Positions 1 to 4,992 of a stretch of 5,118 bases of DNA are shown here, in pieces. Numbering within the stretch: position 1 is the first letter of the stretch; each line of letters starts with the position of its first letter. Below the pieces are notes generated by a model, which did no database searches, was not told the DNA's origin, and saw only the letters and a program-made list of their open reading frames with translations. The stretch comes from a virus (Duplodnaviria; Heunggongvirae; Uroviricota; Caudoviricetes), in the IMG/VR virus record IMGVR_UViG_3300039366_000147, positions 1 through 5,118 of that record; one strand, given 5' to 3'. A program made the translations under genes and the position numbers.

Positions 1-644
1 GTATAGACACGAAAACCGCGCAGAAGGATAAGTTCGGCGCGGGTAAGAACGGTTTTACCCGTGGTAACCCCCAGACTGGCACGCCTGCCACCGATCTGGA
101 TGATGACTACTTTGATATGTTGCAGGAAGAACTCTGCAGCGTGGTGGAGGCATCCGGTGCCAGCCTGGAGAAGGCGCGGCACGACCAGTTGCTTACCGCG
201 CTTCGTGCGCTGCTGTTAAGCCGCAAGAATCCGTTTGGCGATATCAAATCGGATGGCACGGTGAAAACAGCTCTCGAAAACCTTGGTTTGGGAGAAGCGG
301 CGAAAAGGGATGTGGGTACAGGAGAAAATCAGATACCGGATATGTCAGCCTGGAAAAGAAATCCGAGTTCTAATCGCTGGAGAAAATTGCCTGATGGAAC
401 CATCATTCAAATGGGAATATCAGCATCAGGGCCATTAGGCTCACCTGTAAATATCACCCTGCCGATATCTTTCAGCAATACCAATTATTGTGTTGTTGCA
501 TCGTACGATAATGCACGGTCAGGTGTGTCAACAATGGTTAGTTTTGCAGCATTACCTGTTTCACCATCGCAATTTTCCCTGATGTCATCTGTGACTGAGC
601 AAGGAATAAATCCTTTTGCTTACTGGATTGCTTTTGGAGATTGA
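1..644 (+). CDS. Phage tail fibre protein, distal portion (5' end outside window; codons in phase from nt 3); the part after the crossover site is variable cassette 1
   Basis: Frame is open from the window edge to TGA at 642..644. It sits 3 nt upstream of a tail-fibre-assembly gene (GGAGA at 637..641, ATG at 648). The left crossover site lies in frame and encodes ENLGLGE. The gene-order logic is that of Mu S-U and e14 stf-tfa. Confidence 0.8.
271..296. repeat. Left crossover site of the invertible segment (gix/pix/hix-like, 26 bp)
   Basis: CTCTCGAAAACC-TT-GGTTTGGGAGAA. It matches the reverse complement of 2129..2154 at 21 of 26 positions, including a perfect 14-bp run (283..296 against 2129..2142). 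It has the AAACC-NN-GGTTT architecture I recall for Din-family sites. Confidence 0.7.
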
Positions 645-647
645 TAA

Positions 648-1067
648 ATGGACAGATACTTCTATTCACAAAAAGAAAATGGTTTTTTTACCGATTTAAA
701 TAAAGCACCTTCAGATGCTGTTGAGATAACCACGGATGAATGGCTATCACTACTGGATGGTCAGGATAATGGCATGAAAATAGTCAGCAATCAGGAGGGA
801 TATCCGGTTTTGACAGAGCAACCACCTTTATCAAAAGAAAACCTTATTGCATTGGCAGAGTTGAAAAAAGGAAAACTTATTAATGAAGCCAACGAGCACA
901 TGAACAGCAGGCAATGGCCTGGTAAAGCGGCTATTGGTCGTCTGAAAGGTGAGGAACTGGCGCAATATAATTTGTGGCTGGATTATCTGGACGCACTGGA
1001 GCTGGTCGATACTTCCAGTGCGCCAGATATTGAATGGCCTACGCCTCCGGCAGTTCAGGCCAGATGA
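648..1067 (+). CDS. Tail fibre assembly protein (Tfa/U-like chaperone)
   Basis: 139-aa ORF with the C-terminal motif DTSSAPDIEWP that I recognise from Tfa proteins. RBS GGAGA lies 6 nt upstream, directly coupled to the fibre gene. Confidence 0.8.
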   Translation: MDRYFYSQKENGFFTDLNKAPSDAVEITTDEWLSLLDGQDNGMKIVSNQEGYPVLTEQPPLSKENLIALAELKKGKLINEANEHMNSRQWPGKAAIGRLKGEELAQYNLWLDYLDALELVDTSSAPDIEWPTPPAVQAR

Positions 1068-1641
1068 TATCCGGCGCGGTGCTGGTATCTGTTACCGTCA
1101 CCGCGTCAATGTAATCCAGCACGGCGTTAAGTCGGGTTGTTTCTGCCTGCGTCAACTTCCGTCCGGCCTGCAATTTCAGTTGAATCAGACTAATGGAAGC
1201 CATTGCAGTATCAATCAGTGACTGACGTTGTGCTTCTGCCGCGTCTACTGCGGCGCTATGCTGTGCCTCGGTATCCGTCACCCATTTCTCACCATCCCAT
1301 TTATCGTATGGCGTTAACGGGGCGATAGTGGTTGTATTATCAGGGTAATCACCCGGAACTGTGATTTCTTTTGATTCTCCTGTTTCGGTGCTAAAGACGA
1401 TTTCACCGCGATGGTCTGGCACATATTCCCATGAGTTAAAATCTGCAGATCGGCAGATTGCATAACCAGCTTTGTATGCGCCTGGGGCATCTAAACAGGA
1501 ATATGCCGGAATGCCGACACCAATAGCAAGATATTCAGTTGAAGCTGAAATATATTCCCGACTCATGACATCAAAGTTATAAACAGTAATTTCTCCTGCC
1601 ATAGTGGCAATTAATTCACTGTTTAATTCTGCGTTATTCAT
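1039..1641 (-). CDS. Tail fibre assembly protein, second copy, for the alternative cassette
   Basis: 200-aa ORF ending in DTSTAPDIIWPELPEA, the same Tfa C-terminal motif. Its ATG (1641..1639) overlaps the stop of the upstream - strand fibre cassette by 1 nt. Its 3' end overlaps the + strand tfa by 29 nt. Confidence 0.8.
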   Translation of the reverse strand: MNNAELNSELIATMAGEITVYNFDVMSREYISASTEYLAIGVGIPAYSCLDAPGAYKAGYAICRSADFNSWEYVPDHRGEIVFSTETGESKEITVPGDYPDNTTTIAPLTPYDKWDGEKWVTDTEAQHSAAVDAAEAQRQSLIDTAMASISLIQLKLQAGRKLTQAETTRLNAVLDYIDAVTVTDTSTAPDIIWPELPEA

Positions 1642-2141
1642 TATGCAGCCCTCACGATATAGTTAAATGCAATATTCCGTGGACGGGTTTCATTTATCCC
1701 ATATGCTGTTGTTCTCTGATTCCCGACAAAATATCCATTTGGATTAGAAGATACAGAATAATCATCAAAATCAAGAGGGCTATCAGCACCCGGCGTCAGG
1801 CTTGCAATATATCCTCTTCCCATAACTTCTGATGCTGGTATTTCTTTTGTACGATAATCACTAACTCTGAAGAGCTGCCCTTGGTGGGTGTGTGATTCCA
1901 CTCCTCCATTCTGAAGACTTAGCAAGGCACGTACAGCATCAATACCACGCCCGTCATCCCAGCCACGAATAAACTCACCACGTAAATCAGGCAATTTATT
2001 TGTCGGATAAGCCTTTGCCAGTTCCGGGTATTCTTCAGCAGAAAAAGCGGCACCGTTGCATTCAGCCAGCCTGTTGGCGGAGTGGCTGAAGGCCACGGAA
2101 CAGGCACACCAACCGGTAATGCAGAGCCTTCTCCCAAACCA
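1641..2141 (-). pseudogene. Alternative tail-fibre distal cassette, promoterless, with an apparent -1 frameshift near 2060..2065
   Basis: Encodes a tail-collar-like motif (ECNGAAFSAEEYPELAKAYPTNKLPDLRGEFIRGWDDGRG) in the frame of the 189-aa ORF. The frame set by the crossover site is instead that of the 87-aa ORF (INVGLGEGSALPVGVPVPWPSATPPTGWL...), which stops at 1919. The two frames meet at TGGCTGAATGCAACGG. Confidence 0.6.
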
Positions 2142-2154
2142 ACGTTTATGAAAA
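2129..2154. repeat. Right crossover site of the invertible segment
   Basis: TTCTCCCAAACC-AA-CGTTTATGAAAA, about 55 bp upstream of the invertase ATG. It is the inverted partner of 271..296. Confidence 0.7.
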
Positions 2155-2208
2155 TGCAGAAATAACGAGCAAATGGCATCATTCCTGCTTTTGTCAGGGA
2201 GATCTACC

Positions 2209-2526
2209 ATGCTTATTGGCTATGTACGTGTGTCAACAAATGACCAGAACACAGATCTACAACGTAATGCGCTGAACTGTGCAGGATGCGAGCTGATTTT
2301 TGAAGACAAGATAAGCGGTACAAAGTCCGAAAGGCCGGGACTGAAAAAACTGCTCAGGACATTATCGGCAGGTGACACGCTGATTATCTGGAAACTGGAC
2401 TGGCTGGGATTATATAAAACCGCAGACACGTCGTATGCAAGAACGCGCTGCGGTTGGCTGGTAAAATTTTCGATAGTGCGAGTATTGAATGATTTCCAGC
2501 CGTTACAGATTTTACGTGCTAATTAG
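2209..2526 (+). pseudogene. Gin/Pin/Hin/Cin-family serine DNA invertase, truncated (family similarity ends at about codon 64)
   Basis: ATG at 2209 with GGGAGA RBS. The N-terminus MLIGYVRVSTNDQNTDLQRNAL...GDTLIIWKLD carries the catalytic-serine motif and closely matches my recollection of Pin/Gin. After WKLD (nt 2400) the frame continues 42 codons with unrelated sequence to TAG at 2524..2526. The resolvase core and helix-turn-helix are absent. Confidence 0.75.
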
Positions 2527-2732
2527 TGAACAAACCACTCGTCAGCAGACTCCCAGGTATCTTTCAGAGTCTCCTGCGGTGCGTGTAACAGAAAGCCCAT
2601 CATTGCTGGTGGCTTTTATGAGCACCTCCACATTGTCATAACGCTTACTGATGCGCCGAGTTAATTCTTTCTTTAACGCATCCACGGCACCGTTTGGCAT
2701 TTTTCTTTGGCTATGCAGATCTCAATGTACAT
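2523..2732 (-). pseudogene. DinI-family (SOS damage-inducible protein I-like) gene, apparently disrupted by two frame changes
   Basis: Three reading segments on the - strand resemble E. coli DinI as I recall it: [11 protein letters not shown], then in the -1 frame [42 protein letters not shown], then back in the first frame [15 protein letters not shown] followed by stop. The total length from ATG to TAA is 210 nt, which is in frame. Confidence 0.5.
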
Positions 2733-2737
2733 AAAAC

Positions 2738-2772
2738 CCCCTTGTTACTGTATGCGCACACAGTAACAAGGG
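2738..2772 (-). promoter_or_regulatory. Perfect 13-bp inverted repeat containing a CTGT-N8-ACAG LexA-box-like core (2748..2763); alternatively a hairpin terminator
   Basis: CCCTTGTTACTGT-(9 nt)-ACAGTAACAAGGG. It sits 5 nt upstream of the dinI-like ATG. On the - strand the stem is followed by GGTTTTAT. Confidence 0.4.
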
Positions 2773-2850
2773 AGCGTCTAAGTTGATCTTGCGGGTTGTA
2801 TAAGCTGGGATTTTTAATGGATTTTATCCTGATTATTTGGAGATAAAGTA

Positions 2851-2883
2851 CCTTAAAACCAGCATGAGAGACTGGTTTTAAGG
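2851..2883 (-). terminator. Perfect 12-bp stem, 9-nt loop hairpin downstream of the 437-aa ORF (possible terminator)
   Basis: CCTTAAAACCAG-CATGAGAGA-CTGGTTTTAAGG, about 85 nt 3' of the ORF stop on the - strand. The stem is AT-rich and there is no clean U-tract, so the assignment is weak. Confidence 0.3.
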
Positions 2884-2966
2884 AAAGAATTGAACCGATA
2901 ATGCTAAATGATATTGTAGTGCAACCTAGTTGGCTTGTTTATTTTTAATGATAAGTGAAAATAAAG

Positions 2967-4280
2967 CTAATCTATATCACTTAAAGTACCTTTAATTTCC
3001 CCTTGCTCAATATCCCCTAACCCAAGTTTACCTACTAATACATTACATTGCATGATGACTGAAACGGTCATATCTCGACCAGATACATCTTCCTCTTTAT
3101 AATGCTGTCCGCTTACATTTGCAGAAAGTTCAGCATAAAAACCATTATTAAAGTAGTATTGCTCAACAGTAATATCATCTATATTTTCAAAAATAGTGTC
3201 TGATTCTGCAATGGCACCTGAGACACCATCGCTATCAAAAGCATCAAATGGATTTTTTTCAAACTCCTCTCTGCATAACTCCGCAAGATGATCACCAGAA
3301 ATTAATTTAAATGGGATGTTGTCAAATAACATATCAAGATGATCAAAAATTAAATCTGCAGAAAAATCTTCATTGTCAGAGTTTTCTTCCAGCACTATTT
3401 GTTCAAGACGTTTGGCTAATTTGTCATCATAATAGACATATTTGACTTTGCTTAAAGTTTCATTATTGAAATTTTTGTCATCAAGAAGTTCATTAAAATC
3501 CGTATACCCAAAAAGTGAGGAGGCAATTAAACCTAATGTTTTAAGTGATACATGTATGTTGTCACTTCTGAGACTTTCATCTATTTTTAGCATGAGATAA
3601 TATGCAGATGGAAATCTATTGGATGCATGAACAGCTCTGGCTTTTGCACTATCGTTTTCAAATCTTATTTTTTCCAACTCTGCTTGTTTATTTTTTTTAT
3701 CTAGCTCAAGCTTTGATATTGATTCTTTGTTCTTTGCTGCTTGTGTTATAGCCTCTTGTTCTTCAGCTTTGCTTTTCGCTTCAATAGCCTTGACTTCCAG
3801 TCTCAAACTTCTTTGTCTTATATGTTCAAGTATTAATTTCCGTTTATCAATATCTTGCTGAACCAATTGTTCAAGAAATTGTTTGTTTGGATTAGTCCGT
3901 AATCTCTCTTTATTCAGTTCTTGTTGTTGCTTGATTTTTACTAATTCTATATCAATAGCCTGTTTATGTAGTTTCTTTTGAGATAAACTTTGTACTGTGT
4001 TAATAAAAAGAGAAAGCCATGGGAAAATAAATAAGTAAAAAGAGGCGGCAAGAAATGGGAAAACAAATAACTCATTCCACCCTAATATTGGCGTTCTTGA
4101 AATATACTCATAAAATAAGTTTATTCGCTCTGAAGTTTTTCCTTCACCCCAAAAAAGGAGAGATAGATGGTTCCAGTTACATATTAGCCATGAAAAAATA
4201 AAAGCGCCAACAAATGGATCGTTTATCTTGGTTTTAGCGTTTCCTGCTAACGAAGTAATTATATCATCTAAAAATTTCAT
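2967..4280 (-). CDS. Hypothetical protein, 437 aa: N-terminal membrane anchor, central coiled coil, acidic C-terminal domain; function unknown
   Basis: Longest ORF in the window, uninterrupted, in a visibly AT-rich block. GGTGA lies about 10 nt upstream of the ATG. Hydrophobic stretches at about residues 22-36 and 70-94, a K/E/Q-rich heptad-like region at about 100-210, and a D/E-rich C-terminal segment of about 220 aa. No family recognised. Confidence 0.75.
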   Translation of the reverse strand: MKFLDDIITSLAGNAKTKINDPFVGAFIFSWLICNWNHLSLLFWGEGKTSERINLFYEYISRTPILGWNELFVFPFLAASFYLFIFPWLSLFINTVQSLSQKKLHKQAIDIELVKIKQQQELNKERLRTNPNKQFLEQLVQQDIDKRKLILEHIRQRSLRLEVKAIEAKSKAEEQEAITQAAKNKESISKLELDKKNKQAELEKIRFENDSAKARAVHASNRFPSAYYLMLKIDESLRSDNIHVSLKTLGLIASSLFGYTDFNELLDDKNFNNETLSKVKYVYYDDKLAKRLEQIVLEENSDNEDFSADLIFDHLDMLFDNIPFKLISGDHLAELCREEFEKNPFDAFDSDGVSGAIAESDTIFENIDDITVEQYYFNNGFYAELSANVSGQHYKEEDVSGRDMTVSVIMQCNVLVGKLGLGDIEQGEIKGTLSDID

Positions 4281-4321
4281 TTTTTCAAAATCACCAATTG
4301 GTTATAATTAATATAATGGAT

Positions 4322-4349
4322 TGTGCAGTAAAATATAATTTACTGCACA
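4322..4349. promoter_or_regulatory. Perfect 11-bp inverted repeat with 6-bp AT spacer in the promoter region of the 437-aa ORF (candidate operator)
   Basis: TGTGCAGTAAA-ATATAA-TTTACTGCACA, 42-69 bp upstream of the ORF start codon. No adjacent T-tract on either strand, so it is not a terminator. Confidence 0.35.
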
Positions 4350-4992
4350 TCATTCTAGGTTTTTGCATAAAATGTTCAATTGTTTTCAAAGATAGCTCCT
4401 CAATTAATATATGACGACTTAAATATCACCATACTCTTGCTAATCATTGATTGCTTTTCAAGCGATAAACACCAAAAAATACCGTATAATATTCACTCAT
4501 TTTATCTGCGTAATCAACTCGGTCTGCAGCTGTTACACCTGAGCTTGTGAAACGTCAGAGTAATACGGTTTCTTTACGCATAGTATGCTGTTTATACAAT
4601 CTCCATGGGGAAGTTAATTGGTTATTAGGGGCACTTGTGTATAACGAACAACTAAAGATGACAAGCCATATGGTAAGTTGTATCCAGGCGGTTATTGAGA
4701 TGCTCTCTAATTATTAATGCAATGTCGACTTTGCGATATCTTCTTTCTTTGAGAATCGGGTTGCCGAATGCATGTGGTTGATCTTTGTGCTGTGTTTGTG
4801 TGGTGTATGATTTTTAATCGATTAATAATAAGAAATAATAGGGCTAAGATTGTTGTGTGTACAAATGGTTTTTGGTTACAAATACACCTACTGATCATGT
4901 TCTGCTATGCTCTGATACCTCCAAAATGTACAATCAGCGGCATGAATTTTTCTTTGTACATATGATTGTACATAATCAAAGAGACAACAATT

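What the first reader, a model, noticed from the sequence alone, without database searches (positions are those of the whole stretch)
2209..2526. Truncated invertase leaves an orphan switch that could still be flipped in trans
Only about 64 codons of the serine invertase are conserved, covering the catalytic Ser region. The remainder to 2526 is unrelated sequence that abuts the dinI-like gene stop tail to tail, suggesting a deletion or recombination scar. Both crossover sites survive. In this family the Fis-dependent recombinational enhancer lies in the 5' part of the invertase gene, which is retained here. Din invertases cross-complement, so a Gin/Pin/Cin from another prophage or an infecting phage could invert this segment.
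Basis: partly seen in the sequence, partly recalled or inferred. Interest (0 to 1): 0.5.

Follow-up and report, generated by a model that had tools for sequence, protein, structure and literature searches.

The report
Orphan tail-fibre switch, still flipping
A defective E. coli prophage has lost two thirds of its DNA-flipping enzyme gene, yet natural isolates carry its invertible tail-fibre segment in both orientations, so the switch is still being flipped, most likely by a related enzyme encoded elsewhere in the genome.

Summary
Window 2209-2409 encodes only codons 1-67 of the 184-residue serine invertase PinE. A 348-bp deletion joins codon 67, through a 7-nt filler, to the normal pin-dinI spacer. 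The stub lacks half the catalytic domain and the whole DNA-binding domain. The same junction occurs in 21 of 5426 complete E. coli genomes, so it is an old, inherited deletion and not a sequencing error. Both 26-bp crossover sites (271-296, 2129-2154) are identical to those of K-12 e14 and of an intact copy in the same genome. The two enhancer Fis-site positions (2231-2245, 2279-2293) lie inside the stub, 48 bp apart and about 97 bp from the nearer crossover site. They coincide with the only two troughs of synonymous variation across 72 pin homologues. The switch has flipped since the truncation. Strain APEC E123 differs from the window, and from two other assemblies identical to it, only by an exact inversion between the core dinucleotides, with 0 mismatches over 11.3 kb. 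A second cassette set at the same truncated locus also exists in both orientations, and there the crossover maps to 7 nt containing the core. E123 carries one intact pinE, in a prophage at dusA. Trans action is classic Din biology, so novelty is moderate.

The parts
3..644 (+). Tail-fibre gene in the window orientation. It starts 7 nt upstream of the window and encodes 216 aa in full. The constant part runs to the left crossover site, and the variable gp53-like C-terminus is 284-644.
   Evidence: The Pfam domain Gp53-like_C matches residues 128-212. The gene is called as a 216-aa product in the identical contig L014.
271..296 (.). Left 26-bp Din crossover site. Its reverse complement reads TTCTCCCAAACC AA GGTTTTCGAGAG. 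The core dinucleotide is 283-284.
   Evidence: It forms an inverted repeat with the right site. It is identical to the K-12 e14 site and to the E123 dusA site. The inversion endpoint lies within 283-297.
283..2142 (.). Invertible segment, 1860 bp counted from core to core.
   Evidence: In APEC E123 this stretch is the exact reverse complement of the window, with 0 mismatches elsewhere.
648..1067 (+). Tail-fibre assembly gene (139 aa) that partners the gp53-like cassette.
   Evidence: Pfam Caudo_TAP match, E = 2e-26.
1039..1641 (-). Tail-fibre assembly gene (200 aa, TfaE-like) that partners the alternative cassette.
   Evidence: Pfam Caudo_TAP match, E = 2e-32.
1641..2142 (-). Alternative fibre C-terminus with a tail-collar domain. 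It carries a 1-nt deletion near 2062, so it is a pseudo-cassette.
   Evidence: Pfam Collar match. The frameshift shows against the dusA copy. RefSeq marks the gene 'frameshifted' in the E123 orientation.
2129..2154 (.). Right 26-bp Din crossover site, TTCTCCCAAACC AA CGTTTATGAAAA. The core dinucleotide is 2141-2142.
2143..2208 (.). Fixed spacer between the right crossover site and the pin start. On the minus strand it holds the ATG (2177-2179) of the StfE/StfE2-like leader MPFARYFCIFINVGLGE, which reads into the segment.
   Evidence: In-silico translation of both orientations, compared with K-12 StfE and StfE2.
2209..2409 (+). Stub of the serine invertase pin. It comprises codons 1-67 of 184 and carries an R65W change.
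   Evidence: BLASTP gives 64/67 identity to PinE residues 1-67. Pfam matches only Resolvase profile positions 2-76 of 145, with no HTH_7. RefSeq annotates it as a pseudogene.
2231..2293 (.). Presumed Fis-dependent recombinational enhancer. The proximal core TGTCAACAAATGACC is 2231-2245 and the distal core GTGCAGGATGCGAGC is 2279-2293. Their centres are 48 bp apart, and they lie 96.5 and 144.5 bp from the right core.
   Evidence: The sequence is identical to intact pinE and nearly identical to Mu gin. Troughs of synonymous diversity fall at codons 8-12 and 23-27 in 72 homologues. The geometry matches the published hin enhancer (PMC3798978).
2409..2415 (.). Deletion junction, a 7-nt filler ATTATAT between pin codon 67 and the dinI module.
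   Evidence: Alignment A1. The junction is present in 21 of 5426 complete genomes.
2416..2522 (.). 3' flank of the dinI module, which is the normal pin-dinI spacer.
   Evidence: It is about 80% identical to the spacer of the intact dusA prophage and to dinI regions of lambdoid phages.
2523..2732 (-). DinI-like pseudogene (frameshifted).
   Evidence: RefSeq annotation. It is shorter than the intact 249-bp copies in JNU and S88.

Best explanation
The window is the right end of a defective e14-like prophage inserted next to prfC. It carries a Mu-G/e14-P-type invertible tail-fibre segment (283-2142) bounded by two intact 26-bp Din crossover sites.

The resident invertase gene pin was cut down to 67 codons by an old 348-bp deletion and cannot encode an active enzyme. 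The deletion spared everything the reaction needs in cis. That means both crossover sites and the 5' part of pin, which holds the bipartite Fis-binding enhancer (2231-2293).

A Din-family invertase made elsewhere in the cell therefore binds the two sites, assembles with Fis on the stub-borne enhancer, and inverts the segment by exchange at the central AA/TT dinucleotide. In strain E123 the obvious candidate is PinE of a second e14-like prophage at dusA, whose crossover sites are identical.

Shown here:
- the truncation
- the intact crossover sites
- the conserved enhancer sequence
- the presence of an intact paralogue
- the fact that inversion has happened repeatedly since the truncation

Inferred:
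- which enzyme is responsible
- whether Fis and the enhancer are required
- any phenotype

In this lineage the window orientation gives an intact 216-aa fibre gene. The flipped orientation breaks the fibre gene, because its alternative cassette is frameshifted. It also creates a 132-aa ORF built like K-12 StfE2.
For: Truncation. The stub matches PinE residues 1-67 only and has half the Resolvase domain and no HTH_7. It is a 348-bp deletion relative to the intact locus. The junction is shared by 21 complete genomes.

Flipping, first cassette set. The window is identical over 5118 nt to contigs of GCA_003328175.1 and GCA_012999615.1. APEC E123 differs only by the reverse complement of 298-2127. 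Over 11,314 nt there are 0 mismatches after in-silico inversion between the cores.

Flipping, second cassette set. A different cassette set at the same truncated locus (LP50-1 type) is also found in both orientations, L016/L022 versus L017/L021. L022 and L017 show 0 mismatches in the 2.8 kb around the segment after inversion. A SNP in the inner half-site moves with the segment while the outer mismatch stays put. This confines the crossover to 7 nt that contain the 2-bp core.

Cis elements. The crossover sites are identical to those of e14 and the dusA prophage. The stub is identical to intact pinE through 2375. Two troughs of synonymous constraint fall exactly at the predicted Fis cores (normalised entropy 0.40 against 0.83, Mann-Whitney p = 0.0007). 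The geometry is 48 bp between centres and about 97 bp from the site. This matches the hin enhancer, described as 65 bp long, with Fis sites 47 bp apart, about 100 bp from hix (PMC3798978).

Trans source. E123 has exactly one pin 3' half, inside an intact pinE at 19051-19605.

Precedent. PinQ of prophage Qin inverts the e14 P segment, which carries the same repeats (PMC12529663).
Against: No experiment or read-level data shows inversion within one culture. The evidence is between-isolate polymorphism.

The responsible enzyme is not identified. Only E123 was checked for an intact pinE. Only 39% of complete E. coli genomes have a pinE-like 3' half detectable by megablast.

All nine complete genomes with the truncated locus that I inspected have the long (594-606 bp) assembly gene co-oriented with the baseplate genes. 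Flipping may therefore be infrequent or biased.

Fis binding was not tested. A loose Fis consensus scan is not discriminating on its own, since it returned 3 pairs at 46-49 bp spacing in 270 nt.

The synonymous-constraint test ignores phylogenetic non-independence among the 72 genes.
Confidence: 0.8

Rival explanations
1. The switch is a dead, locked relic. On this view the two orientations seen among isolates were not produced in situ. They came from importing whole segments by homologous recombination or horizontal transfer from other e14-like prophages, or from independent truncations on backgrounds that already differed in orientation.
For: The tail-fibre cassettes behind the same junction are mosaic and differ among strains. 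The EM06-type stub differs at 128 of 282 positions upstream of an identical junction. Recombination with other prophages clearly does happen at this locus.
Against: E123 and the window-type contigs are identical at every one of 11,314 positions once the segment is turned round. The only other copy in E123, at dusA, is 5% divergent in the segment. It could not have donated an identical inverted segment. The junction, including its 7-nt filler, is the same everywhere, so a single truncation event is indicated. Two cassette sets each show an exact core-to-core inversion.
Confidence: 0.05
2. The inversions are real but were made by general (RecA-type) homologous recombination between the short inverted repeats, not by a site-specific invertase.
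For: The two sites share 15 nt of perfect inverted identity (283-297 and 2128-2142).
Against: Fifteen nucleotides is below the length usually needed for RecA exchange (established knowledge). In the LP50-1-type set the identity is broken by a SNP. There the exchange is confined to a 7-nt stretch that contains the Din core dinucleotide, exactly where serine invertases cut. The repeats are bona fide Din sites, identical to those of e14, which PinE and PinQ invert experimentally (PMC12529663).
Confidence: 0.03
3. The segment is flipped in trans, but the pin stub plays no part. On this view the stub is simply undeleted junk, and inversion is enhancer-independent or uses some other Fis-bound DNA in cis.
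For: The hin enhancer can act from many kilobases away (PMC3798978). Enhancer function in this stub is inferred only from sequence. The stub's identity to intact pinE could reflect recent shared ancestry or gene conversion rather than selection.
Against: Wild-type Din invertases depend strongly on a cis enhancer. In the published Hin system, reactions without Fis ran at under 0.001 inversions per molecule per minute (PMC3798978). The only sequence in the window with the conserved bipartite signature is inside the stub. In K-12, deleting pinE, which also removes its enhancer, locks the P segment although chromosomal pinQ is present (PMC12529663).
Confidence: 0.1

Closest known systems
P segment and PinE of the E. 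coli K-12 cryptic prophage e14
   Same: The 26-bp crossover sites are identical. The gene order is the same: ymfQ, fibre constant part, two fibre C-termini with their assembly genes in opposite orientation, then pin. The host is a similarly defective prophage in which the portal gene abuts the baseplate genes. The fixed StfE-type leader next to pin is the same.
   Different: Here pin is cut to 67 of 184 codons. The prophage sits at prfC rather than icd. Downstream of pin lies a dinI-like pseudogene instead of mcrA. The variable cassettes are different alleles, and one is frameshifted.
G segment and Gin of phage Mu, with its enhancer (sis) inside the 5' end of gin
   Same: The architecture is the same, with the invertase gene just outside the right crossover site. 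At the two Fis-site positions Mu has TATCAACAAATGACC and GTGCAGGATGTGAAC, against TGTCAACAAATGACC and GTGCAGGATGCGAGC in the window. Kahmann et al. 1985, cited in PMC3798978, placed the stimulating site within the invertase gene.
   Different: Mu has an intact gin and a functional virion that uses the switch for host range. The gix sites differ in sequence and have a TC/GA core.
PinQ of prophage Qin inverting the e14 P segment (Kirigo et al., NAR 2025, PMC12529663)
   Same: An invertase encoded in one cryptic prophage flips the tail-fibre segment of another. The repeats are the same, TTGGTTTGGGAGAAG. One orientation creates a short chimeric ORF made of a fixed leader plus a gp53-like C-terminus. 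That ORF is StfE2 (125 aa) in K-12 and 132 aa here.
   Different: In K-12 the target segment still has its own working pinE. Here the resident gene is dead, so trans action is obligatory. No phenotype has been tested here, and the gp53-like domain is a different allele.
Hin/hix/Fis invertasome of Salmonella
   Same: The enhancer is bipartite, with Fis sites about 47-48 bp apart and about 100 bp from a crossover site. It is embedded in the 5' coding region of the invertase gene (PMC3798978).
   Different: hin lies inside its invertible segment and controls a promoter rather than alternative fibre C-termini.

Membership tests
Din-family (Gin/Cin/Pin/Hin) invertible-segment switch | Two 26-bp crossover sites in inverted orientation with identical central dinucleotides | tested here: met
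   The sites are 271-296 and 2129-2154, with core TT/AA. They are identical to the e14 and dusA-prophage sites.
Din-family (Gin/Cin/Pin/Hin) invertible-segment switch | An adjacent intact serine invertase gene (Resolvase catalytic domain plus HTH_7) | tested here: not met
   Only codons 1-67 remain. Pfam matches Resolvase profile positions 2-76 of 145, and HTH_7 is absent. The locus shows a 348-bp deletion against the intact arrangement.
Din-family (Gin/Cin/Pin/Hin) invertible-segment switch | A cis recombinational enhancer: two Fis sites about 47-48 bp apart in the 5' part of the invertase gene, about 100 bp from one crossover site | tested here: met
   This is met at the sequence level. The cores are 2231-2245 and 2279-2293, 48 bp apart and 96.5 bp from the right core. 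They are identical to intact pinE. They coincide with the only two synonymous-constraint troughs in 72 homologues.
Din-family (Gin/Cin/Pin/Hin) invertible-segment switch | Fis protein binds the enhancer and is required for inversion | not testable with these tools
   This needs footprinting, or inversion assays in a fis mutant.
Din-family (Gin/Cin/Pin/Hin) invertible-segment switch | Inversion actually occurs, with exchange at the core dinucleotide | tested here: met
   Two cassette sets each occur in both orientations in natural assemblies. There are 0 mismatches after core-to-core inversion. The crossover is confined to 7 nt that include the core.
Din-family (Gin/Cin/Pin/Hin) invertible-segment switch | The segment carries alternative tail-fibre C-termini, each with its own assembly gene, in opposite orientations | tested here: met
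   One cassette is Gp53-like_C plus Caudo_TAP on one strand. The other is Collar plus Caudo_TAP on the opposite strand. The Collar cassette is frameshifted.
Active serine recombinase (the stub's own product) | A complete catalytic domain (including the arginines after the Asp-Arg motif and the E-helix) and a DNA-binding domain | tested here: not met
   The protein ends at Gly67 of PinE numbering and has an R65W change. The 38 residues that follow are read from the spacer.
e14 StfE2-type inversion-activated phage-defence toggle (PMC12529663) | One orientation creates a short chimeric ORF made of the fixed pin-proximal leader plus a gp53-like C-terminus | tested here: met
   The E123 orientation gives a 132-aa ORF, MPFARYFCIFINVGLGE followed by a gp53-like domain. 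K-12 StfE2 built in silico is 125 aa with the leader MPFACYFFIFINVGLGE.
e14 StfE2-type inversion-activated phage-defence toggle (PMC12529663) | The chimeric protein blocks phage adsorption | not testable with these tools
   This needs adsorption and plaque assays. The gp53-like domain here is a different allele from the K-12 one.

The most novel reading that the evidence does not exclude
The 67-codon pin stub may not be mere debris. On this reading it is kept because it is the cis enhancer of a switch that the host has placed under the control of another prophage's invertase. The orphan segment would then work as a domesticated toggle between a StfP-like fibre protein and a StfE2-like anti-phage protein, and its state would be coupled to invertase expression elsewhere in the genome.
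Probability: 0.2. Interest if true: 0.65.

Novelty: new variant of a known kind. Interest (0 to 1): 0.45.

Why it matters
This locus is a natural case where a site-specific inversion switch has outlived its own enzyme gene. The pseudogene stub that remains doubles as the cis-acting enhancer, and flipping now depends on a paralogue in a different prophage.

It shows that 'incomplete recombinase' pseudogenes in prophage remnants should not be read as proof that the neighbouring switch is dead. It also adds a naturally occurring example to the recent finding that cryptic-prophage invertases act across prophages (PinQ acting on e14).

If the StfE2-like product made in the flipped state is protective, as reported for K-12, the locus would be a phage-defence toggle wired in trans.

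The underlying chemistry and the cross-complementation of Din invertases have been known since the 1980s, so this extends known biology and does not change the picture.

Tried and rejected
- **Loose Fis scan.** A scan of 2151-2420 for G-N2-YR-N5-YR-N2-C gave 15 candidates and 3 pairs at 46-49 bp spacing. It is not discriminating by itself, so the enhancer call rests on homology and on synonymous constraint.
- **Promoter scan.** The sigma-70 scan of 2050-2800 found nothing. No statement can be made about transcription of the stub or of the StfE-like leader.
- **Orientation census.** The census is therefore limited to the 26 contigs read and to the complete genomes.
- **Literature.** Two look-ups failed because the papers are not held: Hengen 1997 on Fis sites, and an id I recalled for Johnson's 2015 review of DNA invertases. 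The hin Fis core sequences therefore come partly from my own memory and are flagged as such.
- **Gene conversion.** I considered whether the stub had been converted from the dusA copy within E123. The same allele is present in strain CX07, so the identity need not be intragenomic.
- **Aberrant Pin-mediated deletion.** I considered whether the deletion was made by Pin at a pseudo-site. The right junction has AAACC, but I found no convincing site on the left, so this was not pursued.
- **437-aa ORF.** Pfam and PADLOC searches gave nothing.

Full report
**Where the window comes from.** The window matches the chromosome of E. coli O78:H4 strain APEC E123 (NZ_CP126955.1, 480457-485574) at 100% identity, but only 64% of the query is covered on one strand. 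The annotation there shows the right end of an e14-like defective prophage. The genes run ymfL, ymfR, a portal gene directly followed by baseplate V, GP46, baseplate J and YmfQ, then tail-fibre genes. After these come an 'incomplete' recombinase, a frameshifted DinI-like gene, a 437-aa hypothetical gene, and the host gene prfC.

**The observation.** The ORF at 2209-2526 (105 aa) aligns with intact PinE (184 aa) over residues 1-67 only, with 64 of 67 identical and an R65W change. Pfam finds positions 2-76 of the 145-position Resolvase profile and no HTH_7 domain. The intact PinE of the same genome has both domains.

I compared the window with that intact locus, a second e14-like prophage at dusA (L002).
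- Window 1906-2408 aligns with L002 4001-4504.
- Window 2411-2765 aligns with L002 4853-5244.
- The window therefore lacks 348 bp, from pin codon 68 to within a few bases of the pin stop.

A multiple alignment places the end of pin homology at 2408. A 7-nt filler ATTATAT follows at 2409-2415, and the 3' flank of dinI starts at 2416. That flank also lies downstream of dinI in lambdoid phages such as mEp460 and cdtI and in the S88 prophage at prfC. The stub ORF and the dinI-like gene do end tail to tail, with stops at 2524-2526 on the plus strand and 2523-2525 on the minus strand.

The junction is not an error. A 76-nt probe across it finds 21 of 5426 complete genomes with at least 80% coverage. 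A 50-nt exact probe is present in all ten contigs fetched.

**Crossover sites.** The inverted repeat 278-297 / 2128-2147 extends to two 26-bp sites. The right site, 2129-2154, reads TTCTCCCAAACC AA CGTTTATGAAAA. The left site, 271-296, reads TTCTCCCAAACC AA GGTTTTCGAGAG on the reverse complement. Both are identical to the sites of K-12 e14 and of the dusA prophage, and they are clearly related to the Mu gix sites. They contain the repeats that Kirigo et al. give for the e14 P segment (PMC12529663).

**The switch has flipped since the truncation.** This is the central result.
- **E123 versus the window.** The window and the E123 record share an identical prefix of 297 nt and an identical suffix starting at 2128. 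The 1830 nt between them is an exact reverse complement.
- **The window orientation is natural.** Looking up the 437-aa protein brought in ten contigs. Contigs from GCA_003328175.1 and GCA_012999615.1 match the window with 0 mismatches over 5118 nt, and a third, from GCA_054270115.1, matches over the 4372 nt it covers. Twelve further similar places were not shown for the first of these contigs.
- **No other differences.** Over the full 11,314 nt fetched, E123 equals GCA_003328175.1 once 283-2142 is inverted in silico, with 0 mismatches.
- **A second, independent case.** The same truncated locus carries a different cassette set in LP50-1 and GCA_030346225.1 (one orientation) and in GCA_949767355.1 and GCA_017723135.1 (the other). 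After core-to-core inversion, GCA_030346225.1 and GCA_949767355.1 show 0 mismatches across the 2.8 kb around the segment.
- **Crossover position.** In that second set, a SNP in the inner half-site (GGTTTG versus GGTTTT) travels with the segment. The mismatch immediately outside the core stays in place. The exchange is therefore confined to 7 nt containing the 2-bp core.

This is the signature of a serine invertase. It excludes RecA-type recombination and import of a segment from elsewhere. The only other copy in E123 is 5% divergent in the segment.

**Enhancer.** Window 2128-2375, which covers the right site, the spacer and pin codons 1-55, is identical to the intact pinE loci of E123 and CX07.

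The positions homologous to the hin Fis sites are TGTCAACAAATGACC (2231-2245) and GTGCAGGATGCGAGC (2279-2293). The hin core sequences used for this comparison come from my own memory of that literature. The centres are 48 bp apart and lie 96.5 and 144.5 bp from the right core. Mu gin has nearly the same sequences at those positions. The published geometry for hin is a 65-bp enhancer with Fis sites at each end, 47 bp centre to centre, about 100 bp from a hix site (PMC3798978).

As an independent test I collected 72 unique pin homologues from Enterobacterales genomes and measured synonymous codon diversity per codon.
- The first 130 codons contain only two troughs, at codons 8-12 and 23-27. These correspond to window 2230-2244 and 2275-2289, which are the two predicted cores.
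- Normalised entropy is 0.40 in the cores against 0.83 elsewhere (Mann-Whitney p = 0.0007).
- The test does not correct for shared ancestry among the 72 genes.

Both elements lie well inside the retained 67 codons.

**A source of enzyme in trans.** E123 carries an intact pinE at 19051-19605, in a dusA-integrated e14-like prophage with the order tail fibre, pinE, DinI-like, integrase. A search with the pin 3' half finds exactly one place in the E123 chromosome, and that place is this gene. It has identical crossover sites. Across the collection, 2109 of 5426 genomes have a pinE-like 3' half. PinQ-type enzymes, which invert the e14 segment experimentally (PMC12529663), were not surveyed.

**What the two states encode.**
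- **Window orientation.** The fibre gene is intact (216 aa with a gp53-like C-terminus) and is followed by a 139-aa assembly gene. The pin-proximal StfE-like ORF is broken by a 1-nt deletion near 2062.
- **E123 orientation.** The fibre gene runs into that frameshifted cassette, and RefSeq marks it 'frameshifted'. The fixed leader MPFARYFCIFINVGLGE is now fused to the gp53-like domain and gives a 132-aa ORF. This mirrors K-12 StfE2 (125 aa), which is reported to block T2 adsorption (PMC12529663).

Any such function here is inference only.

**Caveats.**
- The evidence for flipping comes from differences between isolates, not from reads within one culture.
- The nine complete genomes with the truncated locus that I inspected all have the long assembly gene co-oriented with the baseplate genes. 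Most window-type draft contigs show the other state. Inversion may therefore be infrequent or biased.
- The enzyme responsible and the requirement for Fis and the enhancer are inferred.

**History of the locus.** The junction is shared by stubs whose 5' parts differ greatly. EM06 differs from the window at 128 of 282 positions, and different cassette sets lie behind the junction. The truncation is therefore old, and the DNA upstream of it has since been reshuffled by recombination with other pin-bearing phages.

**Comparison with known systems.** This is a Din-family invertible tail-fibre switch of the e14 P / Mu G type in every cis feature. It fails one defining feature, an adjacent intact invertase gene. 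Cross-complementation among Din invertases is long established, and a cross-prophage case has been published (PinQ on e14). I did not find a description of a natural switch whose own invertase gene survives only as an enhancer-bearing stub yet still flips. I therefore rate it a new variant of a known kind, of moderate interest.

Noticed in passing
window 2766-4789 (ORF 2967-4280, minus strand): A roughly 2-kb AT-rich island (GC about 0.31-0.35) lies between the dinI-like pseudogene and prfC and carries a 437-aa ORF. The island is absent in JNU, S88 and EM06, where dinI is about 220 nt from prfC. The ORF has no Pfam or PADLOC hit and matches only PHROG families of unknown function.
   Followed up: partly
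window 2523-2775: The DinI-like gene is a frameshifted pseudogene, about 40 nt shorter than the intact 249-bp copies. It still has a LexA-box-like CTGTATGCGCACACAG (2748-2763) upstream, inside a long hairpin at 2736-2775.
   Followed up: partly
window about 2062 (cassette 1641-2142, minus strand): A 1-nt deletion in the collar-domain fibre cassette, relative to the dusA copy, makes one state of the switch encode a broken fibre gene. In this lineage the switch is effectively fibre ON/OFF rather than a choice between two specificities.
   Followed up: yes
window 2129-2179 (minus strand) with the flipped segment; E123 record 482237-482635: The flipped state creates a 132-aa ORF made of a fixed 17-aa leader plus a gp53-like domain. 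It is built like K-12 StfE2, the e14 protein reported to block phage T2 adsorption.
   Followed up: partly
L008 (strain EM06-18-14) 3329-3529 versus window 2128-2409: The truncation junction is identical, but the stub upstream of it differs at 128 of 282 positions and sits behind a different tail-fibre module. The DNA upstream of a fixed junction has evidently been replaced by recombination with other pin alleles.
   Followed up: partly
window 2416-2445: This 30-nt start of the dinI module is found, unannotated, in about 270 further complete genomes, many of them with a prophage at prfC (for example S88, APEC O1 and O145:H28). It marks a conserved module boundary that coincides with the right end of the deletion.
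   Followed up: partly
complete genomes L001, L004-L006, L009-L013 versus draft contigs L014, L017, L018, L020, L021, L023: All nine complete genomes inspected have the long (594-606 bp) assembly gene co-oriented with the baseplate genes. Most draft contigs of the window type have the opposite state. The reason is unknown and could be clonal sampling, biased inversion or selection.
   Followed up: no
L001 16474-17945 (E123 prophage): The prophage is defective in the same way as e14. A short portal gene abuts baseplate gene V, with no head, sheath or tube genes between them, so the fibre switch serves no obvious virion.
   Followed up: no
pin homologues L025-L104, codons 8-12 and 23-27: Across 72 unique Enterobacterales pin genes, the only two troughs of synonymous diversity in the first 130 codons sit 15 codons apart. 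This gives a comparative footprint of the bipartite enhancer for the whole family.
   Followed up: yes
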